A DNA stretch of 64,000 nucleotides, from assembly GCA_000002445.1 (NCBI GenBank), contig CP000069.1, forward strand, positions 1,554,916 through 1,618,915. Reading direction: 5' to 3'. Both the position numbers and the translations under genes were made by a program. The first letter of the stretch is position 1. The number at the start of each line of letters is the position of its first letter. The stretch is from Trypanosoma brucei. Taxonomy: Eukaryota. Positions 1,770-62,517 of this stretch are shown one piece after another. The notes under the pieces were generated by a model that ran no database searches, was not told where the DNA came from, and saw only the letters and a list, made by a program, of their open reading frames with translations.

Positions 1770-1880
1770 GTAATATTACTATATACACACTCACAACACT
1801 CTCCTATCATTATCATTTTTATTATCATCATTACTTTTCCTATAAAATCCTTATTATTATAGTCCTAACTAATATTCATC
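1770..1880 (-). repeat. VSG-associated 70-bp repeat unit, reverse orientation on + strand. It belongs to a cassette lying left of the window.
   Basis: The segment reads 'tatacacactcacaacactctcctatcattatcattttt...', which is the reverse complement of the GTGTTGTGAGTGTGT core plus TAA/TGA-rich tracts typical of T. brucei 70-bp repeats. The same module recurs upstream of every VSG in the window. Confidence 0.75.
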
Positions 1881-2102
1881 AACTAAAACAAATAAATCTA
1901 AATTAGAACATCACTAATTTTCCATATCCTTCCATTCTACTATTTTATATCCATAAATGGATACCTTACAAAAATATCAATTTTTCAAAGATTTCAAAAG
2001 TTCCATTAATTTGCACATTTTCATGGAAAAGTGTTAAAATATATAAAATATCTGAAAATACCATGTTTTATAAAATCTCATGAATTTTAAAACAACAAAC
2101 TC

Positions 2103-3647
2103 AAAAAAAAAAGCATTCATCAGAGTCAGTTTCTTATTTAAAATAATACTGGAATCCTTGCAAGTTTCACCTTCTCATTTGCCATTTGTGTGACCTTCAC
2201 ATTTTGCCTTATAAGTTCCGTGTCTTGCACAACCAGTTGTCGTTCTTCCTGCACCAGCCCGTGCTTGTGTTGCTATTTGCTCTGCTGCTCTTGTATTCAA
2301 TTTGCAGTGGGGACCATCGTCGTCATTTTCGCTTTTCCATTCGCAAGCCGGCTTGTTTTCTCTGCACTCACCTACTTTGGTTATTGCTTCGCATTCTTTG
2401 TTGGTTTCTTCTAATGTTTTCGTGGACTTCACAGTTTCAGTGCCGCGAGATTGTTTTATTTCCTTTGAAAGTTTTACTTGCGTGTTATGCAAGTGTAGTA
2501 AATTCGTTAGGGTTTTGTTTAAGCTGTTTATTCTCTCCATCAGTGACGCTTTGTGCCGTGCTGCGCCAGCTTCTGTGTCTAAGGCCGCCGCTGCTTGCTG
2601 AAGCGGTTCCAGCCAGGCTGGTCTGTTGCTGCTCGTCGCCGTTTTGCCATAGTTGACACATGCACCTTTGCCGGAGTTGTCATTGTTTCCGTCGCAGTTC
2701 CCGGCTGTTGCTGAGCCGTGTGTGTCTCCTAGGTATCCAATTTTTTGGTCAGTGCCGTGCGGAGCGTTTATGAGTTGCGCTACCTGCCTGATGGTCTGCC
2801 TGATGTCGCTCGCTGAAATTTGGGAGTTTGTTGGATCGAATTGCTTGCAGCCTGCTTTGAGCTTTTTCCAGGCCGCTGCGTGGTTGAAGTCGGCGCCGTT
2901 GTAAGTTACCGTTGCCGCCCCGTTTGCTAAGCAAGCCTTGTTGTCCGTCGCGCTGTTTGAACCGCAAATACAAATTAAATCTTCCGCTATCGATTTACCC
3001 GCCGCTTTCCCGGCCGTTTCTACTTTTCCGCAGGTGGTCTCTCGATCCGATGCTGCGTCAGTTAGGTGCACTGCATCGTCTGTTTCTGCGTTGCCCAGTG
3101 CCGCTGTCTTCAAGAGCTCTTTGCTCGACTTCCCTGCTGAAGTTTGAGGTTGATGTTTGTATCGCTCTATTGCGTTTTTTAACAGTTCCACTGTTCTGTT
3201 GATTTCTGGAAGCATGGTGCTCGGGGTTTCAGTGTTTCTTATTAGGTGGTCGCCAAGCGTATCCCCTCTGCTTTTCAAGTATTTTGCCGCGTCAACACAG
3301 TCGGTTGCTTTGTCCTTGCCGCAAAGTTCTTCCAGTTTTTCTTTTGGGTTCTTCAGCTCTGCTGCCTGGTCTGCCGCTGCCGCTAGCGAGTTTAGACTGT
3401 CTGTGTCGCGAAGGTAGAGCTGCAGGAGCTTGGCTGTTTTCGTCGTGTCTTCATCGATTACTCCTGTACTCGTTGCTTGTGGCGTGTTTTCTAGGGCGTT
3501 GACCACGACGCAGAGTGTGCCGTATAGGGCCGTATTTTCTCCTTTGCTCAGCTCTGTTGCTGCCACCGGCGACCACAGATTTGCTGACACGATTATTGCC
3601 GTTAACGCCATGATATCGAATGCTACCTTCAAAGTTTGTGGCTTCAT
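2103..3647 (-). pseudogene. VSG: Variant surface glycoprotein (VSG) gene. A 490-aa ORF at 2175-3647 is followed, after an in-frame TGA, by the GPI-signal coding block.
   Basis: The N-terminal signal peptide is MKPQTLKVAFDIMALTAIIVSANLW. The C-terminal region is Cys-rich. Translation reads '...KCEGHTNGK*EGETCKDSSIILNKKLTLMNAFFF', so the canonical GPI-signal tail is present but sits behind an in-frame stop. A 16-mer-like element lies at 2031-2046. Confidence 0.8.
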
Positions 3648-4100
3648 TTTCTTTCTCTTGTTTCTCTGTAATGCTTAGGGGCTGTTACTATAGTAAAATG
3701 TGAACAGTGTTGTTTGCAGATTGAGCACTTCTTTTTCTCCGTCTGCTGTACCGCAAATGAGTTGCTAGTTCCGTGGCCGGTCCTGCCTCGGCCAGGTGGA
3801 ACGATGCTGCCGTTTAGCGGAAGCTGCTAGGAACTAACGTTTATTTTTTTACCAAACCCGTTTGCTGCACTGATAAGATTAAAGAAGAGCCAATTTAACC
3901 ATATATTACGTTATCCACTAAAAACGTTTAGGGTATTTCCCCCAAATTTAGGTTTTTAATCCTTTTCGATATCAATTTAAAAAACGTATTTTTTGTTTCC
4001 ACAAATTTCCAAATGATGTTGTTTCTGTTGGATTTCATATAAATGGAGATAAATACCTGACACATTAGAATCTGTAAATTATGACTTTAAATAGCTGTAT

Positions 4101-4190
4101 TTTTCATATGTTCAACTTATGAAAAAGTTGATTAACTGTGGAAAACCATGATCACTATAACCTAAGGGTTTAACCAGAATTTTCGAAAAT
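4101..4190. other. Conserved upstream-region block ('TTTTCATATGTTCAAC..GTTGGTTTCA..CCATGG'), copy 1 of 5.
   Basis: Near-identical blocks occur at 23134-23215, 30231-30300, 50745-50820 and 61611-61680. Each lies 0.3-0.9 kb upstream of a minus-strand VSG start. Confidence 0.6.
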
Positions 4191-5314
4191 ATTGCACTTT
4201 TACTTCTTACTCTATATTGGTCTATATATACAGAATTTATTCGCCTTATTCACACTTTCAGTACTTTAGTCCTTGAAAATAACGAGCATATTTCTAGACC
4301 TGAAAATTTTAAGCTTATGTTTTTGAGTGCTTTTATTTTGTGATAATTCTCTAATATGTGCTGGCGAAATAACCAGTTAGCACCACTTTTCATCGTGGTG
4401 GCGGTTATGCTCCGATCTATTGTATTTAATCTGGCTGTTTGGGTTTTAGCTTCCTTGTACGCTGCTATTTTTAAATTACCCACATTAAATAAGGTTTACT
4501 CTGGGTCTTAATACTTAGCGCTGAATCACTAAACTTCGTTAATTTCTCATCTGCATACCATTGTTAAACTGATGCATTTGTGCTGTTAATTGTTGACTTC
4601 TTAAAGATGCTCCACATCTTTATCTGTGTGTTATTTCATGATGGCTACACATTATTTTTTTGCTTTTCACAGTAATCCATTAGTGGACGTAGATTTAAAA
4701 TAATTCTCACAATAATATGATATTGTTTCCCACAAATACTGTCCACTATCACTATTTCTCCTGAAAATGGCTTCGACATTACTTTACACTTACCCAATCT
4801 ATTCTTACTGTTGTTCTTTTGTTTGCTCTCGTTCACAGCTGAATATTTGGTTCCGCCATAAGATAAAATAGCACACTACTCATTATCTCTGCAATTTCTT
4901 CTATCTACTTTTAATTGAAATACTGTGCAGCATTTCTTTCTGTATCGTTTATTTATGTAATGACATTTACCTGTCGTTGTAACCTACATTTTTTCACTTT
5001 CGTTTTCTATCACTGCTTCCGTGTATCGTAGAAATTGTATTTTACCTGTGCATTGTAGTTTGTTTTTGACTAATTTCCAGCGAAATATTCTTCTTGTTCT
5101 TCTCTTTTAAGGTGGTTCCTGCAATAGTTTTCTTTTAAACAGTGCATATTGCATCTCCCGTTCTGTTTCTTTGCATTCTCTCACTATTACTTATGTATCT
5201 TTTTCATATTCGCTTCGCCAGTCATTCCCATACACTCACTGCCCCCTGAAGCTCTTTTCAGTCCCTTCGTCTGCCTTGTCCATTTGGTTATCGGTGTCGT
5301 TCTTATTATAACAT

Positions 5315-5450
5315 TCGTATACACACACTCACAACCCTCTCCTATCATTATTATTATTATCATTATTATTTTACTGCTTTTATTATAATATTAGTATATA
5401 CGCATTTATAACAATCTCCTTTCATTATCATAGCTTTTATTATGGCAACG
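5315..5450 (-). repeat. 70-bp repeat unit(s), ~1.7 kb upstream of the VSG at 2103-3647.
   Basis: The sequence reads 'cacacactcacaaccctctcctatcattattattattatcattatt...ataatattagtatatacgcattt'. Confidence 0.8.
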
Positions 5451-5639
5451 TTTCATAATATCTCTGATTTTTCGTACCCTATCTTAATGCTATGTTGCAC
5501 TCGTATACTAATGTCATACAAAATTTAACAAAGTTTACATATTTTCAAATTTTCATCTGAAAGTATTAAAATATATTAATCTTTAGAAAATTTCCATAAT
5601 TTGATAAAATTGAGTACCAATTCTTAGAATTCTATAATC

Positions 5640-7265
5640 GTAAAATGCTAATAGCCTCAAAAAAGCTGCAGCCATCAGAGTGAACTTCTTATTGACAAGA
5701 AAACTGTAATCTTTGCAAGTTTCACCCTCCTATTTTCAGCCATCTCCACATTCTTTCTCCGCTTTACCTTTGCATTTCTCTTCTTTCTTTTCTTCCGCCT
5801 TAGCTCCCTCTTTAACTTTGCACTTTCCATCTTTGTATTCGCATCCATCCTCATCTTTGCACTCCCCCTGTGGTTTGCCCTTGCATTTTCCTTCTGCTAT
5901 TTTGGTGGGACATGAGGAGCCTGCTTGCTTTTTCTCCTTTTCTTCCTGTTCCTCAACAAAGTGCCGAAAAGTGTAATAGGTTGCAGCATATGCGATTTTT
6001 TGTGGTGATGTTATTGTTTTTAGCTGTCTGTCGCCATTTCCTCCGACAGCGGCTTTAGGTTGTGTCAGGTTGTCAAGCGACTTTCCTACAGTGTTTGTAA
6101 TTTCGTCTCCATTTTCACCGATGACTTCCTTTAGTAAGTTATCTACTTTGGCTTTAGTCTCTTGGTTGCTGTACTTGGCCGTTTCACCTTCTATCGCTGT
6201 CGCTATTTTTTCCTTGAGAGTGCTACTTGTTATTACCGTTTTTAAGTCCAGGTTTATTTTTAGCTGGCTAAGCTCAGAGATTACCTTTTCTAGGGGTGGT
6301 ATGTTTTTTAGCTCTGCCGCAATGGTTTTGGCGCTCGGTATGGCCGTGCTCCCTGTGGATGCTGTATACTCTTCCTGGCTCCCGTATGTTTTGCGCGTTA
6401 GTGCAAGTGTTTCTTCAACGAATAGTTTGCCGCTCACTACCGCTAGTTTGGTGGTTTGGCCACTCGTGCAGGCGTTGCTGGCTGTGTGTTTGCCTGTGGC
6501 CGCCGCATGTGCGCACACCGTGAGTACTGAGTCAACTCCAGCGTTGGTTACAGTTGCCGTTTTTAAGCCGATTAATACGATTGAGTTCGTTCTTGTGCTG
6601 TCTGCCGTCGGTGGTGTTGCATCAATGTCTCTGGCGGTCGCATCCCGCGTGCAAGCCGCGTTTTCGTTGATTTTCGTCGTCGGCTGGATCTTCTGGTAGT
6701 TTCCGCCGGTGAAGTCGGTCGCTGCAGTTACATAGTCTGGTAACTCAATGGCGGCAGTCACGAGCTCCGCCACAGCTTCCATTTGCCCGCTAAGTTTGTA
6801 AGCTGCTCTCGACGCAGCGTAGATCGTCTGACGGTGCTTATTTACTTTATTTTGTAATTCAGCGACTGAGGTTATTAACCTCTTGGACAGAAGATCGGCG
6901 ACAAGCTTTGTGGCGCCTTGTGTTGCTTGAGTTACTATCTGTAGCTTAGCCGCTGTATCAGCTGCTGCAGCGCTCTGCTGTGCTTCTGTTGTTAATATGG
7001 CCAGAGTGTTGTCTGCCAATTCCTTTAGATAATCTGCCGTATGTCAGGGTTTTTTTGCTGCCGCCTTCAGTGGGTGCAGAGTAAGGGAGCAGACTGCATT
7101 TGTTGCTGCGAATAGAGCTAATAGAAGGTATACTCTTCCATGCGATAGCGGTAAAGGTACATGTGCCAACTTTACTGTTAAAGTCCGTCGGAAGTTCTGG
7201 CCGTTTCGGGTTTGCTGGTGCATCGCTACCTTCTTTTGTTTTTTGAGAGATTTATTGCTCTTCAA
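5640..7265 (-). pseudogene. VSG: VSG pseudogene. The signal-peptide ORF (7044-7265) is frameshifted relative to the main 427-aa ORF (5736-7019), and two in-frame stops precede the GPI-signal block.
   Basis: The N-terminal region reads '...VYLLLALFAATNAVCS'. The main ORF ends '...KCKGKAEKECGDG*K*EGETCKDYSFLVNKKFTLMAAAFLRLLAFY'. A 16-mer-like element lies at 5563-5579. Confidence 0.8.
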
Positions 7266-17354: not shown

Positions 17355-17825
<471 letters not shown>

Positions 17826-19645: not shown

Positions 19646-20954
19646 CGTCTACGCTTCCTTGATGGTGCCTTCTAGTAAAGAAAAATGGTGTAAGCACTGG
19701 TAAACCTGCTTTTTCACAGTACGTTAAACGTTCCTTCGCTGCGCCGTTTTTCTCGTGCTTTTTTTCAATTTTTGATTGCCTCGTGAGTGTATGTTGTTAC
19801 GGCTCTATTCTTCTGTAACATAGATTAGTCCATATCTATACAGTTGTTAGAGTTTCCCATGATCGCTGTCGAAGTCACCGTTTGAAGCCTTGAAAGCATC
19901 ACGCATATTTCTATATCTTAAAATTCAAATCTTATGTTAAGTTTCCATTTGTATTTTGTTGTAATACGGAACTGCGTGAGAAGGAGATAACCGAGGTGCG
20001 TTTCTGCTTGTCACGAAGATGATTTCTCTTATGTTTCCGCTTTTTCGGACTCTCCCTTTCATCATTCCGCGTCTTTTAAGGTGTGTTCATTCTGACTCTT
20101 CTTTCAGTAGTCTTGAATACTGTAAGTTTTTGTAATTTTTTCTGTCATCTGAGGGTCGCTTTTGATTATTATGTGAATCACTCGGTCTTTAAAGACTTTT
20201 AATTTCCCACAAGAATGCCAGTATGAAATTAATTGTGTATTATTAAAAAGATTCTGTGTATTATAAGGTCTATATCACATGTAATATATGCGCGTTTTGT
20301 ATCAGTTTTCACGTGTTTATTTCTTTTCTTCTGTTCACGGCCATCCAATAACATTCCTAGTCTTAAAATCATTCCACTTGATAATATAATTTTTGTAGCA
20401 AACAAGTTATAGTCATTGTCACCATATTTGATGAGAAAACATAGACACTAGATCACACATGTCGAATGCCTTTTTCCTGCAGCTTATTTTCCTCTTTCTT
20501 CACAGTTGGGATTAGAAACTGCCTTTAGCTAGAAAACCATGGTCGCTAACAACATTTCTGCCGTAGCATCCTTCTATTTTCGTGTGAAATACGTTCCAAA
20601 ATTTCCCCTCGTATGAGTTTACTTCTTAGTCCATCGGGCCTCACATTTATTTGTTTCATTATGCATCTACTTTCCCACTCTTTCATCTAATTCTATTACA
20701 ACTGATTGCGTAGCGACTCAATGTGCCTTGTACAACGGACTCTGTGCCTTCATGTTTTCCACTTCCTTCCACTTGCGTACAATTATTTCCGAACCCTTTT
20801 TGTGTTTTAGTCGCCGGCTTTTCCATTTTTTCTATCTTTCTGCAATTCCTTTCATAATAATTATCCACGTGAGCTCTTTTCACTCACCGTCTCTCAATCA
20901 GTATAATTCATCCTTACCATTTTTTAAACCCTTGTGCGCTAGCTAAAAAATTCG

Positions 20955-29292: not shown

Positions 29293-31364
29293 AGGCGCTG
29301 GTAGAGAGATTTTATCACTCTTTTATATTGGAGAGTATTATCAACGCCTGGTGTATCGTTGAGGCTTCTGCTCCCAGTTTCTCTCAATCTTCTTCCAGGT
29401 TATTGCTGTTATTTTTTTCTTGGTAGTCGGCTACAGCTTCAAGCCTGCTAAGGTTAATTTAGGAGAAAAATGTACGTTAGATGTTGAGTTCAGCTGTTTT
29501 CTTTGATTTGCCGAGTTGGCTGTTGCAAAAGGTTAGAAATACAGAAAGCTGTAAAGATCATAAAATTAATTTAGGAAATGTACACACATCACTATTTTTT
29601 ACTGTCCGGTTGGATACAGTTGCATTATTAATAGTTTCCTTATTTTCATCTACTGGAGCTGAAATTTAAGCTGTTTTCACGTCTTTAATTAGGCGTTTGT
29701 TAGAACAAAAATGCATGCTTTCATGTGATAACTCTTTCAACATTCCTAATAGTAGGAGTCACTAAAACTAATTGCTTTTACACTATTTTGTGGTTCAAAA
29801 AAGCTGTTATCGCCGTTTTTTGTTTTTTGTTTGGATCCGCTATTCTGCTCGGTGTTGCTCTGTTTAAATTTTCTGCTCATTGTTGAAGCTTTTGTCGTAG
29901 CTCGGTGCACCGGTGCAAATGAATGCTTGTCCTTTCATAGTCAGTATCATTTTTGCTATTGAGGGACTAACTTTTAAACGAATTATGCGGTCTTTCTCAG
30001 CTTCCTTTTCAACGATAAATTGATGTGTATTCACAATAACACTTTAGGTTGATATATGCGTTCTACGAATAACTCGTGAGAGAATATTGAAAATGGTGCG
30101 CTTGGTCGCCATCTAAATGTGCAGCCTTTTTGCTATAACATTATTTTATTCATTTCTTTTCGGATATTTTGTCACAATTTATAAATATAAAAATAATGCA
30201 AATACTTAAATTATCACCCAAAATGATTGTTTTTTTCATATGGTCAAGTTGTAAAAAGGTCGGTTTCACGATAAAAACTCACAGAAATAATGAAAGATAA
30301 TTCACCTAAATTTCGTTTTAAGACAAGTTTTCGCTTTAAGGTCTAATCTATATCATCTTATATCTATATCTAAAACACCTAATATTTATGGCTGTTGTGT
30401 GCCTCTATGGCAGTACAACTCTCGTTGTGCGGTTTCACCTTAAATGACTATATAATTCTGACTTTTCTGCCTCACGCATGTTCTTTGTTACTTTTTTACT
30501 TTGTCCTTTTATCCTGCTTTATTGTCGATCTCTTTAGTTTTTTCTTGGCAGTTGCGGCATTATTCCACTAATTTGCTTTGACAGGTGTGATTATACTCCA
30601 TCAATAACGCATTAGCATGTATGCTTATATGAATTAGACGCTCCTTGAACTGGTAAAGCGGTTTTGTCATTGAGCCAGTAGGTGAGAGGCAGTGTATTAT
30701 TTTAAACTTTCTTTTCTTCATAAAAGTTCATCGGGACATGCATACATGCGCTACTTTAATAGTTCCTGCGTTTCTATTGTTATTTTCCTACGGTCAGTAA
30801 TCTGTTCAAAGTCCTGGTATTAACACTATCTTCTCGACAATATTATACATTTTCTCATAAATCTGATTAATTATCGCTATATCTTTTGAGAGAACCTCGA
30901 TATTACCTAACACTAACCTAATCTCCTCAATCTACCCGGGCATCTTTTCACCTTCCGACGTTATGGTCTGCGAGCACTTCTGCTGTTGCACCTATCCATT
31001 TTTCTGAGAAATAAAGGCTTTCACCACCTCTTCTTCTTATTTCTCTTGATGTGTTATATTTCTCTCAGCTGTTTTGCGTTATATATTGTGTCATTTTATT
31101 CCGTATTTTTTCTCCTTTTATCACTTGTTACGCGGACAACTTACCGACTCTATCGTCCATATAAATTGCACTCTGCTTGTTTTTCGTTTTCCCTTACATC
31201 ACCTGCTTAATTATGATGATTATCAGAGACATCACTGTGTTTAAATAAGCGCATATTATATATCTATTCCTTTTTTGTGCGTCTCCTCAAAAAAATATAT
31301 TCCTCTTCTACTCCCGCTCTCACCCATATTTCATCCTCGAAATTGGTTTACACTTTTTTACTTT

Positions 31365-31430
31365 AGACACACACTAGGTTTCACAACACTCTCCTATCAT
31401 TATTACCATTATTATTATCATTATAGGCCT
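31365..31430 (-). repeat. 70-bp repeat unit.
   Basis: The sequence reads 'cacacactaggtttcacaacactctcctatcattattaccattattattatcattat'. Confidence 0.7.
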
Positions 31431-31699
31431 AACTTTCATGTATTTAACAACCATAATAAGCGAAACTCAATGTTTTTCATAATTTCACTGATTTTTCATA
31501 CCATAACTCTTTATAATTGTTTACATATAGGCTATTTTCATACATTTAAAAATTTCACATCTCGCAAAATTTTTACAAAAGTGTTAAAATATATCAAATT
31601 TTCGAAAAAATTTCAAAATTGCAAATTTCATAAATTTAATTGAATTTAAGTGGAGAATTTTAAAACATCGCACTCACAAAGCAGAAGCCATCATGATTA

Positions 31700-31990
31700 A
31701 TTGTTTATTGATCATTAAACTGAAATCACGGCATTTATAAATGGACTTATTAGATCCATCACTATTTTCTCCTTTCCAGCCTCAAATACTGAGGGCAGAA
31801 GGTGCAAATCCTTTGTTTTCATCCTCATAAGCTTGTTGATTAGTGCCATGTTGGGTACACCTATCTTCTTCCCTAATCTTTCCCTCCTTCTTTTACTGTT
31901 TCTTTTGCTGTTGCGTTTTTCCATCCTCACTCAATGTGCACTTTTTACCATCGTTTTCTTTAGGATTGAAAACGCGCAACTGGAAGTGGA
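31700..31990 (-). pseudogene. VSG: VSG 3' fragment: C-terminal-domain remnant plus degenerate GPI signal, with its 3'-UTR 16-mer at 31581-31596.
   Basis: Minus-strand translation reads '...FNPKENDGKKCTLSEDGKTQQQKKQ*'. The 'GKKCTLSE' motif is shared with the C-terminal domains at ~14070 and ~21480. The tail reads '...LISPFINAVISV*'. Confidence 0.55.
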
Positions 31991-32290
31991 GCGGCTTTAG
32001 AGTCACCTTCCAGTAACAGATGGCGCAGTTGTTCCTTAACTGCTGATCGTGATAATCTCCTACTTTAGAATAACTTTCCCTTCAGATTATTTGTGCTTTT
32101 GAAGAAAATCGTATCGCGCAGTGAAACTGCCACACTCCAGCGTTTAAAAAAATTAAAAAATTTTACAAAAACAAAAAACCGAAAAAAAGAAGATAAAAAA
32201 TAGAAAAATCAATAAAAAAATTTTAAAATGTAAAGAATGAAAAAAAAAATTAAACCCCGCTGGAAAAAAGTAAAAATGTAAGGGGGGGAA
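31990..32290 (+). mobile_element. Possible 3' end of a retroposon. A ~120-bp non-VSG block is followed by a long irregular A-rich tail. The ingi/RIME-type assignment is tentative.
   Basis: The block 'ctggaagtggagcggctttagagtcaccttccagtaacagatggcgcag...gcagtgaaactgccacactccagcgttt' is followed by 'aaaaaaattaaaaaatt...aaaaaaccgaaaaaaag...gaaaaaaaaaattaaa'. It is unlike any VSG flank elsewhere in the window. Confidence 0.3.
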
Positions 32291-32368
32291 AGCAGCTCAA
32301 TGTGGAAGAGAAGTGAAGGAACCTTAAGTTCGACAAACAAAAAAGGCGAATTGGCTGCTAGAGGAATA

Positions 32369-32380
32369 AGGGTTAGGGTC
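32369..32380 (+). repeat. Telomere-like hexamer pair (AGGGTTAGGGTC) on the + strand.
   Basis: The sequence is seen directly. It is inverted relative to the block at 32484-32506. Confidence 0.6.
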
Positions 32381-32483
32381 TCCATCAAGAAAGAGCGGTA
32401 GCACAATTGAAAAATAAAAGATCAAAAGTCGTGACGCTTCACTGCTAGTAAAGAAAACAACATATTAGTAAGAGGAGAAATAT

Positions 32484-32506
32484 CCCTAACCCTAACCCTT
32501 ACCCTC
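32484..32506 (-). repeat. Interstitial telomere-like repeats. The gene (minus) strand reads GAGGGTAAGGGTTAGGGTTAGGG, ~110 bp downstream of the 16-mer of the VSG at 32658-34182.
   Basis: The + strand reads 'ccctaaccctaacccttaccctc'. On the gene strand the G-rich strand runs 5'->3' away from the VSG, as at a telomeric VSG. Confidence 0.7.
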
Positions 32507-32657
32507 AAAAAAAAATTCAAGAGAAGAAAAGGAGAAAAATGTTAGCCATCGACAAAATAATTCACATGCGCAGACAGCCAAAAAAATAATGATATTATTT
32601 CCGGGGAACTTACGTGTTAAAATATTTCAAATTCAAGCAAGAAAAGTTGAGGGTATA

Positions 32658-34182
32658 TTAAAAAAGCATGGCCAACAAAGCAGCAGCCATACTCAGAGCC
32701 AATTTCTGATTCAGAAGAAAACTAGAAGAGCGGCACTTTTTTGTCTCTTTATCATCTTCACCATCTTTTCCCTTCCTCCATGCACAATTTTGCTTATCTC
32801 CTGTTTTGTCATTTTCAGAATCATGTTGATTTTGGTGCCTTGCACACCGAGATGAATCTGCTCTTGTTCCTGCTGCTGTTGGTGCTGATCTTGCTTTGGG
32901 TTTGTATTTTTTTTTTGCATCATAGTCACGGCCAGCCTTGTTGCAGTTATCTGGGCTAGCATGGTGTTTGTCGCATTCTTGTTTAATGCTAAGTTGCTTA
33001 CCTTCCCCTGGAGTTCCTGCTCTTGGTGAGCCGGCTGTTGCCTCCACTGCGTGGTTGCGGCCGTACTCGTGTTCGGCTTGTTTGGATAGGTTGTCTATGT
33101 CTTTTATAAGAAGCTGCTTTTGTGCCACTTGTTGCTTGTATTCGGAAAATAGTTTCTTTGCTGTTAGTAGATGCCCGATCCAGGCTATTTTCTAAAACCT
33201 TGTTGTGCCATCTTTGATCTGGTCCGTGTATTCAACGCAGACAATTGATGTCCCCGTGCAGACGTTGCCGTTGACTGTTCGGCCTATCCCGATCTTGTTC
33301 TGGTTGTCTGCTAACTGTCCCAGCTGGCCTAGAGATGCTGCTAGTGCGAGCGTTATGCCTTCATCCAGTTGCTTACCTAGATTCGTTTTGGGGCATTTGC
33401 TTATAAGAGTTTCTAGAGCAAATGCGTTAAGGTTGCTTCCTGTTAAGACGGTTCCTGCTATGTTGGTTCCTCCAGCACAGCTGTCCTGGTCATTGGTTAC
33501 TGCGCACAGAAAAAACATGTCGAACGCTATTGATTTTCCGGCGTTTTCTTTTGTGCACTGCAGCACCTTGGTTGTCGCCGTGTTGATGTCGCTACATACT
33601 GGGGCGGCTGCGGTGCCGATTAATGTTCCTGAGCAGAAAGCTTTGGTTAGTGCGTTGTTTATTGCGTTTCCGAGGGATTTACCGGTGCTGTCTCGGGGCT
33701 CCGTGTTTAGTTGTTCGAGCAAGTTCTGTGCTTCCTGGGTTGACATGTTTATGATGCTTATTTGGTAGTCTTTTAGGTTGCTGTTATGCTTGGGCCTGTC
33801 TTTGGCGTTCCAGTCGCTCGTCGGGTTGTTAACCGCCTCCGCGGCTGTTAGCCACCGCGACCATTGTTTTGACCAGTCCAGTCCTTTGGTTGAGTCGCTA
33901 TTGGCCTGCTTATACTTGCCCCACCCCTGTTTTGCCTCGGCTTTTTCAAACATTTTCCTCCAATCCGCTGGTGCTACCGACATGTTCAGCTTCAGTAGGC
34001 TGTCATAGCTTGGTGGCGCCGGCATTGGTGAGCAAGCAGGTAATTTCATGTTTTGAGTTACGTCGCATGCCAAGCAAAGGGAATGAAATGGGGCCTGGGC
34101 GCCCTTTGTCGGCTGGTTCACACAGGGGAGTTATCAGCAACGCCATTAGCGGCAGAAAGTATGGAGTTACACGCATCACCAT
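32658..34182 (-). pseudogene. VSG: VSG pseudogene. The signal-peptide frame, the 309-aa N-terminal-domain ORF (33192-34121) and the C-terminal-domain and GPI ORF (32658-33128) are in different frames.
   Basis: The signal-peptide region reads 'MRVTPYFLPLMALLITPLCEPADKG'. The N-terminal domain reads '...LLKLNMSVAPADWRKMFEKAEAK...' and is paralogous to the VSGs at 44688-46264 and 8808-10296. The C-terminus reads '...KKCRSSSFLLNQKLALSMAAALLAMLF*'. Confidence 0.8.
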
Positions 34183-39527: not shown

Positions 39528-41060
39528 CTACCAAATCACAAAAGCAGAAGCCATACTCGGAGCCAATTTCTTATTGGGGAGAAAACTGGAATCTTTGCAT
39601 TTGTTTTCTTCCCATTTGCAACCAGCTTCCTTCTTGCAAACATCCTCCACTTTGCCTGTACATTTTTCTGTTGCTGTTTGTTCATTTCCTTTTGTTTCTC
39701 CCGCTTGGGTTTTCGCTTGTCCGACTTTTGTTGTATTCAATTTGCACTTTTTCTCTCCTTCTGTAGCCTTATCATTCCATTCACATTCTGACTTTAGGCT
39801 GCATTCTTCGGGGATAACTATTGCTTCACAATCTTTGCTGATATTGTTCGCTTGGTCCTTGTTGGCTGGTGTCAATATTTCTTGTGACGCTATGGGGGGT
39901 TTGGTTAAAGCTAAATGCGAGTAAAGTTTGTCAGCTTTGGCGCGCAATGCTTTCAGCTTGGTGTTTATTACCTTTGCGACAGTCGCTGCCTCTGATGCTG
40001 CGTCCAGTTTATTGGCTGCTTCTAATAGCTTCTCTTCCCACTGTATCTTTGTTGCTGTGCCTGTTGCTGCCAGCAGGGTTGATGCGCTCATGTCTACACA
40101 AGCGGCGCTCGCTTCCGCCCGGCAGTCGTGGTTGGTGCCCGCTGTCCCCAGAATTACGCTTTTGCCGCTGCCACCTCCCTTTGTCTTGTAGAGCCCTTTG
40201 AGCTGCGCTAGTAAACTGCGTATGTTGGCCCCTGTTGGTTTGACTGACGGCATCTTTAGGCAGTGCGGTTCAAGTTCCCTATACGCTGCTTTGACGCCGG
40301 CTTCATTCCAAGACGTAACATCCTGTGTTAGTGTCGCTCCGCAGACATCGGTGTTGGGCTGGTCCCCCGAGTTTTTTGCACACAGACACACCGAAACTAT
40401 GCAAAGAGCGTTGCCTGCTGTGGCTACTTTACAGTCAGCGGCCCTGTTGCCGCCTTTTGCCCCCGGGCATTTGTTTTCTGCTAAAGTTTCAGCCTTCCCT
40501 GCGCCGTACGCTGCTGTTTTTAGATCGTCCAGCACTTTCTGTTTCAGGTCTGTTAGTGCTGGTCTACTTTCCGCATCGAATCTTGCCTGAAGTGTTGCCG
40601 CCTCAGCTGCTATTGCTGCTGCAGCTAATGCGGCTGCCCGGCCTACGCTGCTCGTTTTTTGCATTGGTGAGATTTTTGCAGCCTTATTGTTTTTGTCTTT
40701 GTTTGCTAAGGAATGCGCTATGTGTTGCCATGCCAGCCATTGTTCCTGGCAGCTGTCTTTCGATTGGACGTCCTCACATCCTTTGGCTTCGGCCTTGGTT
40801 TTGATGCCGTCCGTCGGAAAGGCCTTAGTCCAATAGTCATCTGCTAACGAAAAGTTCACTTCGTTGATAGCGGCGATTTCATCTGTTTCGAGCTGGGCTG
40901 TTGGCATGTCGGTGCCATCGTCGTTGGCTATTTTTATTAGGGAGCACACCGTGGTTAGTTCAGCTAAATTTAATGCTTCACTGTCGGCTGCGTGCGAATA
41001 TCGGGTTGCTGCTACTACAAACAGGAGTAACACACTGGCGTGAGCTGGTATCAAAGTCAT
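39528..41060 (-). CDS. VSG: VSG with an apparently intact 510-aa ORF: signal peptide, N-terminal domain, two 4-Cys C-terminal subdomains and a GPI signal.
   Basis: The reading frame runs uninterrupted from 'MTLIPAHASVLLLFVVAATRYSHAADSEALNLAELTTVCSLIKIANDD...' to '...CTGKVEDVCKKEAGCKWEENKCKDSSFLPNKKLAPSMASAFVIW*'. The 16-mer at 39416-39431 lies downstream. The hydrophobic tail is slightly shorter than the canonical 23 residues. Confidence 0.8.
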   Translation of the reverse strand: MTLIPAHASVLLLFVVAATRYSHAADSEALNLAELTTVCSLIKIANDDGTDMPTAQLETDEIAAINEVNFSLADDYWTKAFPTDGIKTKAEAKGCEDVQSKDSCQEQWLAWQHIAHSLANKDKNNKAAKISPMQKTSSVGRAAALAAAAIAAEAATLQARFDAESRPALTDLKQKVLDDLKTAAYGAGKAETLAENKCPGAKGGNRAADCKVATAGNALCIVSVCLCAKNSGDQPNTDVCGATLTQDVTSWNEAGVKAAYRELEPHCLKMPSVKPTGANIRSLLAQLKGLYKTKGGGSGKSVILGTAGTNHDCRAEASAACVDMSASTLLAATGTATKIQWEEKLLEAANKLDAASEAATVAKVINTKLKALRAKADKLYSHLALTKPPIASQEILTPANKDQANNISKDCEAIVIPEECSLKSECEWNDKATEGEKKCKLNTTKVGQAKTQAGETKGNEQTATEKCTGKVEDVCKKEAGCKWEENKCKDSSFLPNKKLAPSMASAFVIW

Positions 41061-44084: not shown

Positions 44085-44455
<371 letters not shown>

Positions 44456-51714: not shown

Positions 51715-52265
<551 letters not shown>

Positions 52266-55813: not shown

Positions 55814-55822
55814 GGCTGAGTT
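55814..55822. repeat. IS10 target-site duplication, left copy (GGCTGAGTT).
   Basis: This 9 bp is identical to 57152-57160 and directly flanks the IS10 termini. It fits the IS10 hotspot consensus NGCTNAGCN in 8 of 9 positions. Confidence 0.95.
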
Positions 55823-57151
55823 CTGATGAATCCCCTAATGATTTTGGTAAAAATCATTAAGTTAAGGTGGATACACATCTTGTCATATGATCAAATGGTT
55901 TCGCGAAAAATCAATAATCAGACAACAAGATGTGCGAACTCGATATTTTACACGACTCTCTTTACCAATTCTGCCCCGAATTACACTTAAAACGACTCAA
56001 CAGCTTAACGTTGGCTTGCCACGCATTACTTGACTGTAAAACTCTCACTCTTACCGAACTTGGCCGTAACCTGCCAACCAAAGCGAGAACAAAACATAAC
56101 ATCAAACGAATCGACCGATTGTTAGGTAATCGTCACCTCCACAAAGAGCGACTCGCTGTATACCGTTGGCATGCTAGCTTTATCTGTTCGGGCAATACGA
56201 TGCCCATTGTACTTGTTGACTGGTCTGATATTCGTGAGCAAAAACGACTTATGGTATTGCGAGCTTCAGTCGCACTACACGGTCGTTCTGTTACTCTTTA
56301 TGAGAAAGCGTTCCCGCTTTCAGAGCAATGTTCAAAGAAAGCTCATGACCAATTTCTAGCCGACCTTGCGAGCATTCTACCGAGTAACACCACACCGCTC
56401 ATTGTCAGTGATGCTGGCTTTAAAGTGCCATGGTATAAATCCGTTGAGAAGCTGGGTTGGTACTGGTTAAGTCGAGTAAGAGGAAAAGTACAATATGCAG
56501 ACCTAGGAGCGGAAAACTGGAAACCTATCAGCAACTTACATGATATGTCATCTAGTCACTCAAAGACTTTAGGCTATAAGAGGCTGACTAAAAGCAATCC
56601 AATCTCATGCCAAATTCTATTGTATAAATCTCGCTCTAAAGGCCGAAAAAATCAGCGCTCGACACGGACTCATTGTCACCACCCGTCACCTAAAATCTAC
56701 TCAGCGTCGGCAAAGGAGCCATGGGTTCTAGCAACTAACTTACCTGTTGAAATTCGAACACCCAAACAACTTGTTAATATCTATTCGAAGCGAATGCAGA
56801 TTGAAGAAACCTTCCGAGACTTGAAAAGTCCTGCCTACGGACTAGGCCTACGCCATAGCCGAACGAGCAGCTCAGAGCGTTTTGATATCATGCTGCTAAT
56901 CGCCCTGATGCTTCAACTAACATGTTGGCTTGCGGGCGTTCATGCTCAGAAACAAGGTTGGGACAAGCACTTCCAGGCTAACACAGTCAGAAATCGAAAC
57001 GTACTCTCAACAGTTCGCTTAGGCATGGAAGTTTTGCGGCATTCTGGCTACACAATAACAAGGGAAGACTTACTCGTGGCTGCAACCCTACTAGCTCAAA
57101 ATTTATTCACACATGGTTACGCTTTGGGGAAATTATGAGGGGATCTCTCAG
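55823..57151 (+). mobile_element. IS10: Complete bacterial insertion sequence IS10 (Tn10-type, IS4 family), 1329 bp, inserted into trypanosome VSG DNA. It is almost certainly an E. coli cloning-host artefact.
   Basis: The outside end reads 'CTGATGAATCCCCTAATGATTTTGGTAAAAATCATTAAG...'. The inside end reads '...GAAATTATGAGGGGATCTCTCAG'. The length is exactly 1329 bp. A 402-aa transposase ORF is present. A perfect 9-bp target-site duplication flanks the element. The Dam site GATC lies in the pIN region at ~55894. Confidence 0.97.
55930..57138 (+). CDS. tnpA: IS10 transposase (402 aa), intact.
   Basis: The ORF reads 'MCELDILHDSLYQFCPELHLKRLNSLTLACHALLDCKTLTLTELGRNLPTKARTKHNIKRIDRLLGNRHLHKERLAVYRWHASF...THGYALGKL' and matches the known IS10 Tnp sequence from memory. 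Its codon usage and composition differ from the surrounding VSG DNA. Confidence 0.97.
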   Translation: MCELDILHDSLYQFCPELHLKRLNSLTLACHALLDCKTLTLTELGRNLPTKARTKHNIKRIDRLLGNRHLHKERLAVYRWHASFICSGNTMPIVLVDWSDIREQKRLMVLRASVALHGRSVTLYEKAFPLSEQCSKKAHDQFLADLASILPSNTTPLIVSDAGFKVPWYKSVEKLGWYWLSRVRGKVQYADLGAENWKPISNLHDMSSSHSKTLGYKRLTKSNPISCQILLYKSRSKGRKNQRSTRTHCHHPSPKIYSASAKEPWVLATNLPVEIRTPKQLVNIYSKRMQIEETFRDLKSPAYGLGLRHSRTSSSERFDIMLLIALMLQLTCWLAGVHAQKQGWDKHFQANTVRNRNVLSTVRLGMEVLRHSGYTITREDLLVAATLLAQNLFTHGYALGKL

Positions 57152-57160
57152 GGCTGAGTT
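57152..57160. repeat. IS10 target-site duplication, right copy (GGCTGAGTT).
   Basis: Identical to 55814-55822. Confidence 0.95.
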
Positions 57161-61166: not shown

Positions 61167-62517
61167 AATATTTCTAACCTTTTTTCGGCAGTTCCTATGG
61201 GTTAAAAAAATAAAAATAAAAAGTTTTCTTGGGCCTGTAAAACCGCCTTTGGGTGTGAGTCATTAAATGGTAGGAAAAAACCACAGATTTTTAGCTACCT
61301 GATACTGCAACCTTCCAACAGCACCGCTATCTAATACCCAAGTAAAAAATGAAAGAAATTAAAATGGATAAATATGTAACAAATACAAAACTTCAGCTTT
61401 CTATTTTTAAAATTCCATTAAATAATTAAAAACATTTTCATTTAAAAAATTTTAAGTCAAATCAATGATGTCATGCCATTTCCAAAAATGAAAAAGACAA
61501 AAATAGCGCGCATTTCTTCAACCAAAAATTATAAACATTAAAAAATTTGCTAAAAATGATTAAAGGTAGCATACTAATAAAAGATGAATATTATCACTCT
61601 AAATTGCAGCGTTTTTCATATGCTTAACTTTTAAAAAGTTCAGTTTCACCACAGAAACCCATGGAAAGTTTTTAAAAAGTTAACGTAAATTTTGGTTTTC
61701 GACACGTTTCCAGTTTTAATTAGGAAACAGGTCTTTATATATATATATATATATCTGTATATGAAACACTAAAAATTTATGGTATTCAGTGTCTTATATC
61801 ATTTGCTAGCTCACAGATTTTAGTTTGTGTCTTAATAAATGGGCTCTGTTTTTCTCCTACTGAACATAATTGATATTTTGCTTCTGTTTGTGCTTTTCTT
61901 AATTTGCTTTGGTCTGATGCCGTTTATACCTGGATAATTTTAGGCCACAAATTGCCTTCCTTTACGTTTGTTGTGTGATAACACACGAAGATAACTCTCC
62001 ATTGATGACGACTTTTATGTGAATTAGTTGCTCACTTCTTCACAGAAGTAAATGTCTCACCGGTATTCAAAAGGAGAATTAGAGAAGTATCGCAACTGAT
62101 TCTCTCTCTTTATAAACATCATCTACTGTTTCATAAATCCGCTATTTTAAGCGGGTTTCCCGTTTTTATTCTTCTTTCACCGTTCACATTAATTCATTAG
62201 AAGTTATAGTTGTAATATTCTAACCCCGATAGTACTATACTGTTCCCACAAATTTTACCGCTTGTTACTTTATCTAATGAGAATTTGACTTCAAAAATAT
62301 CACAAACACACAAACAATCTCTTCTTCTTTATCCGGTTCTTCTTCTTCACAGCTGGATATTAGGATTTGAAATCAGATTGAAAGCCACAGTCGCTAATAT
62401 TATTTCTGCAACGAAATCTATTCATTTGTGAGTAAAATACTGGAATTACCTGTTCATCCTGCATCATTTTATTTTTGGTTGTATTGTGTTCATTCCGTTT
62501 GTTGCCTTTGTTTTTCT

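What the first reader, a model, noticed from the sequence alone, without database searches (positions are those of the whole stretch)
31990..32640. Inverted interstitial telomere-like repeats plus an A-rich retroposon-tail-like stretch directly downstream of a VSG, where a 70-bp repeat cassette boundary would be expected
On the gene strand, ~110 bp beyond the 3'-UTR 16-mer of the VSG at 32658-34182, the sequence reads GAGGGTAAGGGTTAGGGTTAGGG. That is the orientation and position at which telomere repeats follow a telomeric VSG. About 100 bp further on lies an inverted GACCCTAACCCT. A long irregular A-rich tract (32110-32290) and a ~120-bp non-VSG block (31990-32110) follow and abut a VSG C-terminal-domain fragment. 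No 70-bp repeat separates these cassettes. The arrangement looks like a fossil of a once-telomeric VSG, or a telomere-healing or fusion scar, captured in an internal array. It may be combined with a retroposon 3' end.
Basis: partly seen in the sequence, partly recalled or inferred. Interest (0 to 1): 0.6.

Follow-up and report, generated by a model that had tools for sequence, protein, structure and literature searches.

The report
Telomere-type VSG flank buried in array
A silent trypanosome coat-protein pseudogene inside a gene array still carries the pyrimidine-rich downstream flank and short telomere-like repeat that normally mark chromosome-end copies, so it is a relic of telomere-to-array shuffling, not a new kind of element.

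Summary
GAGGGTAAGGGTTAGGGTTAGGG lies at 32484-32506 on the gene (-) strand, 107 nt after the VSG 3'-UTR 16-mer. An inverted copy lies at 32361-32379. These are the only telomere-like motifs in the 64 kb, where about 0.1 is expected by chance. No 70-bp repeat follows.

The window is T. b. brucei TREU927, on a 1.62-Mb record. Related array copies in two T. equiperdum assemblies share both sides of the junction but differ in the middle. One has at least 65 bp of degenerate TTAGGG joined to the same downstream sequence. The other lacks the repeat.

The flank after this VSG is 66% pyrimidine. It resembles only one other flank, that of the second VSG in the set that runs into TTAGGG repeats. Twenty ordinary array flanks in 166 kb are 35-44% pyrimidine and mostly run into 70-bp repeats.

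Published work describes such T2AG3-like tracts 3' of telomere-proximal VSGs, including a 106-bp tract beside VSG221 that seeds new telomeres.

Best reading: this is a telomere-proximal-type VSG 3' flank, with its native T2AG3-like tract, now buried in an array. A head-to-head telomere fusion and an ingi/RIME tail are not supported. It is a known kind of sequence in an unusual place, of moderate to low interest.

The parts
32658..34182 (-). VSG-A, a B-type VSG pseudogene. It has a frameshift just after the signal peptide and an in-frame TAG at 33192-33194. Its C-terminal domain and GPI signal are intact.
   Evidence: Translations. PF10659 match with E=8e-17 for 32658-33128. Closest proteins are 78-80% identical: a T. 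equiperdum VSG and T. brucei VSG 1167.
32614..32629 (-). Conserved VSG 3'-UTR 16-mer, variant TGAAATATTTTAACAC.
32507..32613 (-). 107-nt telomere-proximal-type flank. It starts GTAAGTTCCCC and is 50% T.
   Evidence: It is similar only to the flank of VSG-B in L001, at colinear positions just before that flank's GGGTTAGG (z=3.8, 0 of 300 shuffles). It shows no similarity to 14 array-type flanks. AT skew is -0.43, against +0.02 to +0.16 for 13 of the 14 other flanks.
32484..32506 (-). T2AG3-like tract GAGGGTAAGGGTTAGGGTTAGGG, G-strand 5'->3' pointing downstream of the VSG.
   Evidence: In T. equiperdum OVI the homologous position carries at least 65 bp of degenerate TTAGGG ending in the same ...GGTTAGGGTTAGGG|ATATTTCTCC junction. 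Synteny between the two copies breaks inside this tract.
32283..32483 (-). Block X, 201 nt, 69% pyrimidine, origin unassigned. It is present in the window and in L001 and absent from L003.
   Evidence: Three-way alignment. No significant similarity to VSG 3' ends or to anything else in the window.
32361..32379 (-). Inverted arm ACCCTAACCCTTATTCCTC. It is the reverse complement of the tract's 5' part, including the non-canonical GAGG/TAAGGG units.
   Evidence: 13-nt perfect inverted repeat with a 109-nt spacer. The arms pair in the DNA fold, z=-2.55. 18-19-nt comparison. Retained with one change in L001.
32142..32282 (-). T-rich tract: 65% T on the gene strand, A-rich on the + strand. It has weak internal repeats of period 19, 29 and 68.
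   Evidence: It is shared by all three related copies. In L003 it follows directly on a VSG GPI-signal sequence. It has weak same-orientation similarity to the T-rich flank of VSG-B: score 60 against 36 +/- 5.5 for shuffles, maximum 54.
32020..32141 (-). 122-nt block of unassigned origin between the T-rich tract and the C-terminal-domain fragment.
   Evidence: Conserved in L001 and L003. No Pfam, Rfam, ingi or RIME match.
31680..31973 (-). Degenerate VSG C-terminal-domain fragment with several stops, on the same strand as VSG-A.
   Evidence: PF10659 E=2.1e-10, profile positions 16-99. Translation.
31581..31595 (-). 16-mer of the C-terminal-domain fragment. It is followed by an ordinary array-type flank and the first 70-bp-type repeat at about 31400-31425.

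Best explanation
Window 32142-32657 is the 3' flank of a telomere-proximal-type VSG that now sits inside a chromosome-internal VSG array of T. b. brucei TREU927. The 23-bp GGGTTA block is the short degenerate T2AG3-like tract that such flanks carry between the VSG and the true telomere. It was probably never the terminal telomere itself.

The flank reached the array by recombination. The most likely route is a segmental conversion or exchange that brought in the 3' part of a telomeric VSG: mid C-terminal domain, 3' UTR, flank, tract and the pyrimidine-rich spacer. The result was later copied among paralogous array segments.

Today it is a relic behind a pseudogene.

- Shown: its anatomy, its non-random nature, its flank class, its presence at the same junction in a second genome, and the structural variation centred on it.
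- Inferred: that it still matters mechanistically, as a patch of homology to telomeric flanks. The copies differ exactly at the tract, with a whole second VSG plus its telomere-type flank slotted in ahead of it in T. equiperdum OVI.
- Also inferred: that it is a potential seed for de novo telomere addition if the chromosome broke just distal to it, as demonstrated experimentally for the VSG221 tract.
For: 1. The motifs are real and non-random.
2. Position and orientation fit. The tract starts 151 nt after the stop codon and 107 nt after the 16-mer, with the G-strand pointing away from the gene. Bona fide expression sites have 200-1590 nt between the VSG and the telomere repeats (PMC2567434). 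The VSG221 site has a 106-bp degenerate T2AG3-like tract between VSG221 and the telomere that seeds new telomeres (PMC1807955; PMC3610638). TTAGGG-like repeats 3' of a VSG are used as a marker of telomere-proximal VSGs (PMC3708902).
3. Flank class. Over 390 nt after the 16-mer, this flank is 66% pyrimidine and that of VSG-B in L001 is 65%. VSG-B is the only other flank that leads to TTAGGG repeats. Twenty other flanks in 166 kb of Trypanozoon array DNA are 35-44%. Those whose downstream repeat was located by the scan run into 70-bp repeats 150-200 nt on.
4. The 107-nt flank is significantly similar only to the VSG-B flank. The match is colinear and ends at GGGTTAGG in both.
5. T. equiperdum OVI has the same tract|ATATTTCTCC junction with at least 65 bp of degenerate repeats. 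The junction is therefore old and not an assembly artefact.
6. In the long-read T. equiperdum IVM-t1 contig the T-rich tract directly follows a VSG GPI-signal sequence, so there it is literally a VSG 3' flank.
7. The three copies are 85-92% identical and mosaic. Their left and right halves group differently, and the switch lies at this junction.
Against: - No bona fide telomeric flank could be fetched. Neither an expression-site or minichromosomal flank nor AJ271641 was available, and VSG2 and VSG3 are not on record in the contig index. 'Telomere-proximal type' therefore rests on one sequence comparator (VSG-B, itself internal) plus published descriptions in words.
- The link between VSG-B and the repeats in L001 crosses a 10-N scaffold gap.
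- Block X and the 122-nt block have no identified relatives. It is not shown that flank, tract, block X and the T-rich tract arrived as one piece.
- Similarity of the T-rich tracts is weak and low-complexity.
- The position of the window along the chromosome, and its orientation toward the nearest telomere, were not determined.
- Any present-day function is inference only.
Confidence: 0.68

Rival explanations
1. True former chromosome end. VSG-A was once the last gene, and its telomere eroded to a few repeats. The DNA now distal to it (block X, the T-rich tract, the C-terminal-domain fragment and the remaining 32 kb of array) was added by end-joining to another fragment or by break-induced replication. 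The 23-mer was left as a scar.
For: - The tract has telomeric orientation, and the sequence after it is unrelated to what follows GGGTTAGG in the VSG-B flank.
- The OVI copy has a longer repeat block, at least 65 bp, at the same join.
- The next recognisable feature downstream is a truncated VSG C-terminal-domain fragment. A break-induced-replication or end-joining partner could begin that way.
- A 14-nt imperfect direct repeat brackets the tract (D5).
Against: - The IVM-t1 copy has the same left (VSG-A) and right (T-rich tract onward) neighbours with no tract at all. Left and right were therefore neighbours independently of the tract, unless that copy arose by deletion plus C-terminal-domain exchange.
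- Block X and the T-rich tract keep the pyrimidine-rich strand bias of the flank, as expected if they are a continuation of it.
- Real telomeric VSG flanks already contain an internal T2AG3-like tract (PMC1807955), so no scar is required.
Confidence: 0.17
2. Head-to-head telomere-telomere fusion scar: two chromosome ends joined, leaving TTAGGG and CCCTAA blocks facing each other.
For: Opposed GGGTTAGGG and CCCTAACCC motifs lie 105-109 nt apart.
Against: - The inverted arm is only 13-19 nt. It copies this tract's own non-canonical GAGG..TAAGGG units.
- 105 nt of non-telomeric DNA separates the arms.
- The sequence beyond is pyrimidine-rich on the same strand, and the next VSG fragment is on the same strand as VSG-A. 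A fusion would give an inverted flank and an inverted VSG.
Confidence: 0.03
3. Short interstitial telomeric sequence inserted by telomerase while repairing an internal double-strand break, as described for short interstitial telomeric sequences in vertebrates (own knowledge).
For: - The repeat is a short, nearly exact block.
- Imperfect 14-nt direct repeats flank it.
- One related copy (L003) lacks it.
Against: - L003 lacks about 630 bp here, not just the repeat, and has a different C-terminal domain. It is not an 'empty site'.
- An independent VSG flank (VSG-B) has GGGTTAGG at the same offset after homologous flank sequence.
- The OVI tract is long and degenerate, like the sub-telomeric T2AG3-like tracts (PMC1807955).
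Confidence: 0.05
4. The A-rich stretch (+ strand) is the poly(A) tail and 3' end of an ingi/RIME-type retroposon inserted next to the VSG.
For: An A-rich run of about 140 nt on the + strand is preceded by a non-VSG block.
Against: - There is no similarity to an ingi element (L002 about 1000-6135) or to a RIME/ingi 3' end (L003 about 20400...CACGAAGGCACGAAGAAAATTCTAAAAAAAA). Only chance matches of 13 nt or fewer were found.
- The tract is an irregular A/T mix with internal repeats, not a homopolymer.
- No target-site duplication was seen.
- In L003 the same tract directly follows a VSG GPI signal on the gene strand.
Confidence: 0.03
5. Chance motifs or a mis-assembly of the clone-based TREU927 sequence.
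For: The window does carry one cloning artefact: an E. coli IS10 with a 9-bp target duplication at 55823-57151.
Against: - The motif counts exceed all shuffles.
- The tract/block X junction and the overall neighbourhood recur in two independent assemblies made with other technologies.
Confidence: 0.02

Closest known systems
T2AG3-like tract downstream of VSG221 (VSG-2) in bloodstream expression site 1 of T. brucei Lister 427 (AJ271641 nt 211-322; Glover et al. 2007, PMC1807955; Glover et al. 2013, PMC3610638)
   Same: It is a short degenerate TTAGGG-type tract a few hundred nt or less 3' of a VSG, in G-strand orientation, and it is followed by more non-telomeric DNA. The OVI copy of the present tract (at least 65 bp, degenerate) resembles it in length and style.
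   Different: The VSG221 tract lies next to a real telomere and has been shown to seed de novo telomeres. The present tract is 23 bp, lies inside an array behind a pseudogene, and has no tested activity. Sequence homology to AJ271641 could not be tested here.
[quoted passage not shown]
   Same: The diagnostic feature is the same, and it sits in the same place relative to the VSG 3' UTR.
   Different: Those cases are telomeric or minichromosomal genes. Here the feature is chromosome-internal, with a further 32 kb of VSG array on its distal side within the window.
Ordinary array VSG cassette boundary (3' UTR 16-mer, about 150-200 nt purine/A-rich spacer, then the 70-bp repeats of the next cassette)
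   Same: It has the same 16-mer and the same head-to-tail arrangement of cassettes on one strand.
   Different: The flank is 66% pyrimidine instead of 35-44%. It carries a T2AG3-like tract, and no 70-bp repeat appears for about 1.2 kb.
Interstitial telomeric sequences of vertebrates and other eukaryotes: fusion-type and short telomerase-inserted types (own knowledge)
   Same: Telomere hexamers at a non-terminal site that coincide with an evolutionary rearrangement breakpoint.
   Different: There is no head-to-head array and no clean empty site. Here the repeat is best explained as part of a transposed sub-telomeric flank.

Membership tests
Telomere-proximal VSG 3' flank with T2AG3-like tract | A VSG with the conserved 3'-UTR 16-mer lies immediately upstream | tested here: met
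   The 16-mer is at 32614-32629 and the VSG C-terminal domain and GPI signal at 32658-33128.
Telomere-proximal VSG 3' flank with T2AG3-like tract | TTAGGG-like repeats within a few hundred nt 3' of the VSG, with the G-strand running away from the gene | tested here: met
   A 23-nt tract lies 107 nt after the 16-mer. The related OVI copy has at least 65 bp.
Telomere-proximal VSG 3' flank with T2AG3-like tract | The flank differs from array-type flanks and has no 70-bp repeats directly downstream | tested here: met
   It is 66% pyrimidine, against 35-44% in 20 array flanks. The first 70-bp-type repeat is about 1.2 kb away.
Telomere-proximal VSG 3' flank with T2AG3-like tract | Sequence homology to flanks of bona fide telomeric VSGs (expression-site or minichromosomal) | not testable with these tools
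   VSG2 and VSG3 loci are not on record. The only homology found is to the VSG-B flank in L001, which runs into TTAGGG repeats but is itself internal.
Telomere-proximal VSG 3' flank with T2AG3-like tract | The flank ends in the terminal telomere tract | tested here: not met
   It is followed by a 122-nt block, a C-terminal-domain fragment and 32 kb more array. It is therefore a relic of this family, not a current member.
Head-to-head telomere fusion scar | Opposed TTAGGG/CCCTAA arrays abutting, with the second sub-telomere and its genes inverted | tested here: not met
   The arms are 13-19 nt and 105-109 nt apart. The downstream strand bias and the VSG fragment are in the same orientation.
Telomerase-inserted short interstitial telomeric sequence | Related copies show an otherwise intact 'empty site' | tested here: inconclusive
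   L003 lacks the tract but also lacks about 630 bp around it and has another C-terminal domain. No clean empty site is available.
ingi/RIME retroposon 3' end | Homology to the ingi/RIME 3' terminal sequence followed by a homopolymeric poly(A) tail and target-site duplication | tested here: not met
   No similarity to the L002 ingi or the L003 RIME 3' end. The tract is an irregular A/T mix.
70-bp repeat cassette boundary | Imperfect 70-76-bp repeats with TAA/TGA triplet runs upstream of the next VSG | tested here: not met
   None lies between 31990 and 32657. The nearest is at about 31400-31425, beyond the C-terminal-domain fragment.

The most novel reading that the evidence does not exclude
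The buried T2AG3-like tract is not inert. It may act as the downstream homology block for exchanges between array cassettes and telomeric VSGs. That would explain why the related copies switch partners exactly at it, and why OVI has a whole extra VSG with a telomere-type flank slotted in ahead of it. It may also be a latent telomere seed: after a break just distal to it, it would turn an array VSG into a telomere-proximal one in a single step. A genome-wide set of such tracts would then mark preferred entry and exit points of the VSG archive.
Probability: 0.15. Interest if true: 0.6.

Novelty: new member of a known kind. Interest (0 to 1): 0.33.

Why it matters
VSG archives are thought to evolve by constant traffic between telomeres and internal arrays, but physical traces of telomere-to-array movement are rarely pointed out. 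This locus is a concrete, datable trace.

- It is a telomere-type flank with its T2AG3-like tract frozen inside an array.
- It is present in at least two Trypanozoon genomes.
- It coincides with a breakpoint where related copies carry different cassettes.

If a genome-wide census found many such tracts at cassette breakpoints, they would be candidates for sites that channel recombination or chromosome healing in antigenic variation. As a single case it mainly documents a known feature in an unexpected location.

Tried and rejected
1. Fetching true telomeric flanks.
   - I rebuilt VSG2, VSG3, VSG1 and VSG531 sequences from PDB alignments and searched with them. The search returned VSG2 and VSG3, neither with a contig on record, and the VSG2 look-up failed.
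   - A library-wide search with the VSG-A C-terminal domain, followed by cluster look-ups, gave only array-type loci L005-L007.
   - TREU927 genes are not in the contig index.
2. Block X as a degenerate VSG C-terminal end, GPI signal or 3' UTR. It looked plausible by eye but had no significant alignment score against 17 VSG 3' ends (z of 2.9 or less). Rejected as unsupported.
3. T-rich tract homologous to the VSG-B T-rich flank. The excess score is only weak and low-complexity. Kept as a hint only.
4. ingi/RIME.
   - LAMP primer sequences recalled from memory located an ingi in L002 and a RIME 3' end in L003.
   - Neither shows similarity to the finding.
   - A remembered L1Tc-like 5' signature did not match the real ingi 5' end and was dropped.
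5. Rfam scan of 31300-32800. Only sub-threshold noise.
6. L002, the T. b. gambiense paralogue of VSG-B. It is not syntenic and has no telomere motif.
7. L004. The contig ends inside the 3' UTR and is uninformative.
8. Literature searches. Searches for interstitial telomere repeats in VSG arrays found no explicit prior description of internal array cases. Aline & Stuart 1989 itself is not held.
Full report
**Source and setting**

The window is a head-to-tail VSG array with genes on the - strand. The intact 510-aa VSG at 39528-41060 is identical to XP_845638.1/AAZ12079.1 of Trypanosoma brucei brucei TREU927, on a 1,618,915-bp record. The VSG of the finding, here called VSG-A (32658-34182), is a B-type pseudogene. 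It has a frameshift just after the signal peptide and an in-frame TAG at 33192-33194. Its C-terminal domain, GPI signal and 3' UTR are intact.

**Observation**

The following are read on the gene strand:

| Feature | Coordinates |
|---|---|
| Stop TAA | 32658-32660 |
| 16-mer variant TGAAATATTTTAACAC | 32614-32629 |
| 107-nt flank | 32507-32613 |
| GAGGGTAAGGGTTAGGGTTAGGG | 32484-32506 |
| Block X (201 nt) | 32283-32483 |
| T-rich tract (65% T) | 32142-32282 |
| Unassigned block (122 nt) | 32020-32141 |
| Degenerate C-terminal-domain fragment (PF10659, E=2e-10) | about 31680-31973 |
| 16-mer of that fragment | 31581-31595 |
| First 70-bp-type repeat | about 31400-31425 |

- GGGTTAGGG occurs three times in the 64 kb, all here, against 0.11 expected. 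The 12-mer with one mismatch gives the same picture.
- The 'inverted GACCCTAACCCT' is a perfect 13-nt inverted repeat with a 109-nt spacer. It extends to 18-19 nt: GAGGGTAAGGGTTAGGGT against GAGGAATAAGGGTTAGGGT.
- The inverted arm therefore copies the non-canonical units of this particular tract. The arms pair in a DNA fold, z=-2.55.
- The region has no other copy in the window.

**Related copies**

The nearest protein to VSG-A led to a T. equiperdum OVI contig (L001). A cluster-mate of the 510-aa VSG led to a long-read T. equiperdum IVM-t1 contig (L003). Both are colinear with the window over many kb, at 85-92% identity. They are therefore best treated as paralogous or deeply diverged copies of one array segment. 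All three share VSG-A on the left and the T-rich tract, 122-nt block, C-terminal-domain fragment and 70-bp repeat on the right. The middle differs:

- The window has C-terminal domain 1, the 3' UTR, the flank, the 23-nt tract and block X.
- OVI has VSG-A cut just before its GPI signal. It is followed by a whole second VSG (VSG-B) with its own 16-mer, about 400 nt of T-rich flank (with CAGGGTTAGG 125 nt after the 16-mer), a 10-N gap, at least 65 bp of degenerate TTAGGG (…GGTTATGGTTAGGGTTAGGG) and then the identical ATATTTCTCC… start of block X.
- IVM-t1 has VSG-A with a different C-terminal domain. Its GPI-signal sequence runs straight into the T-rich tract, with no 3' UTR, no tract and no block X.
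- Synteny between the window and OVI breaks inside the telomere-like tract (window 32503).
- Identities are mosaic. On the left OVI is closest to IVM-t1 (89.8%). On the right it is closest to the window (91.7%).

**What kind of flank this is**

I collected every 16-mer-bearing VSG 3' end in the window and seven fetched loci, 166 kb in total.

- Over 390 nt after the 16-mer, VSG-A's flank is 66% pyrimidine and VSG-B's is 65%. The other 20 flanks are 35-44%.
- In the first set of 16 flanks, 13 of the 14 others are A>T in the first 110 nt. Those in which a repeat was detected enter 70-bp repeats 150-200 nt on.
- The 107-nt VSG-A flank aligns significantly only with the VSG-B flank. The match is colinear and ends at the GGGTTAGG motif of both (z=3.8, 0 of 300 dinucleotide shuffles). 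For 14 other flanks z is 0.3 or less.
- So the only two VSGs in the sample that are followed by TTAGGG-type repeats share a distinct flank class.

**What the literature says**

- Glover et al. describe, between VSG221 and its telomere, a 106-bp T2AG3-like tract: 46 bp of T1-2AG1-6 plus 10.5 degenerate repeats (AJ271641 nt 211-322). De novo telomeres are seeded within it (PMC1807955; PMC3610638).
- A short degenerate tract soon after the VSG, followed by more non-telomeric DNA, is therefore a normal part of a telomeric VSG's downstream region.
- My searches found no explicit description of such a tract inside an array.

**Interpretation**

The simplest reading is that 32142-32657 is a telomere-proximal-type VSG 3' flank, with its native T2AG3-like tract, now buried in an array.

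- The continuous pyrimidine-rich strand bias through flank (67% Y), block X (69% Y) and T-rich tract (75% Y) fits one compositional unit.
- In IVM-t1 the T-rich tract literally is the sequence following a VSG.
- How it came to be internal is inferred. The likeliest route is a segmental conversion or exchange from a telomeric donor, with its left end in the C-terminal domain. The copies diverge at window 32914 or 32726.
- The rival is that the tract marks a real former chromosome end to which distal array DNA was added. It cannot be excluded. It is less parsimonious, because the IVM-t1 copy joins the same left and right neighbours without any tract.

**Rejected readings**

- Head-to-head fusion fails on polarity, on the 105-nt non-telomeric spacer, and because the inverted arm is a local copy of the tract's own units.
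- The retroposon tail fails for three reasons. An ingi (L002) and a RIME/ingi 3' end (L003, …CACGAAGGCACGAAGAAAATTCTAAAAAAAA) show no similarity to 31900-32700. The tract is an irregular A/T mix. It is also T-rich on the strand of the VSG that it follows.
- Telomerase insertion at a break lacks a clean empty site. It is also contradicted by the GGGTTAGG at the same offset in the VSG-B flank.
- Chance and mis-assembly are excluded by the shuffles and by two independent assemblies.

**Limits**

- No bona fide telomeric flank could be retrieved.
- The VSG-B-to-repeat link crosses a scaffold gap.
- Block X and the 122-nt block remain unassigned.
- The orientation of the window relative to the nearest telomere is unknown.
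- Any present function is inference from the VSG221 experiments, whether as a homology patch for exchange with telomeric flanks or as a latent telomere seed.

**Verdict**

It is a known kind of sequence (the telomere-proximal VSG flank with a T2AG3-like tract) found as a relic in an internal array, at a junction that varies between related copies. It is a new member of a known kind, with interest about 0.33.

Noticed in passing
window 55823-57151 (+), target duplications 55814-55822 and 57152-57160: A complete 1329-bp IS10 (annotated as 'IS4-like element ISVsa5 family transposase' in E. coli genomes; Pfam DDE_Tnp_1, E=1.5e-24). It is 99% identical to copies in E. coli cloning strains (NEB5-alpha F'Iq, XL1-Blue). 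It has a 9-bp target duplication, GGCTGAGTT, and is inserted in an A-type VSG fragment. It is almost certainly a hop during cloning in E. coli, so it is an artefact in the TREU927 assembly and not trypanosome DNA.
   Followed up: yes
window 62512-62594: An 83-bp piece 89% identical to the 5' end of the ingi element found in L002 (CCCTGGCG… region). It is an isolated retroposon 5' fragment in the array.
   Followed up: partly
window 17392-17819, 44133-44435, 51758-52217: Very long, almost pure TAA/TTA triplet arrays: 143 copies at 99%, 101 copies at 85% and 153 copies at 100%. They are presumably the triplet component of 70-bp repeat regions but are unusually long and homogeneous. Some create spurious ORFs of 170-230 aa.
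   Followed up: no
L001 11578-13780 (T. equiperdum OVI, CZPT02001881.1): A second VSG (VSG-B) is inserted after a VSG-A copy truncated before its GPI signal. VSG-B has a TAA in place of the lysine codon at the start of its GPI signal. It is followed by about 400 nt of T-rich flank, a 10-N gap and at least 65 bp of degenerate TTAGGG. It looks like a telomeric VSG cassette slotted into an array copy.
   Followed up: partly
window 32470-32483 and 32527-32540: An imperfect 14-nt direct repeat (ATATTTCTCCTCTT / ATTTTTCTCCTTTT on the gene strand) brackets the telomere-like tract plus 20 nt. It could be chance in T-rich DNA or a trace of how the tract was joined.
   Followed up: no
window 32726-32914 versus L001/L003, and proteins P0002, P0004: VSG-A homologues switch C-terminal domains at different points. 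This is seen in IVM-t1 at window 32914 and in OVI at 32726. Lister 427 VSG 1167 matches at 92% only over the first 75 residues of the 156-aa C-terminal query. These are typical 3' mosaic exchanges clustered just upstream of the finding.
   Followed up: partly
L003 about 20390-20567 (-): The 3' end of a RIME/ingi element, with an A8 tail, lies in the T. equiperdum IVM-t1 array copy 3 kb beyond the syntenic block. The corresponding window region has no such element.
   Followed up: partly
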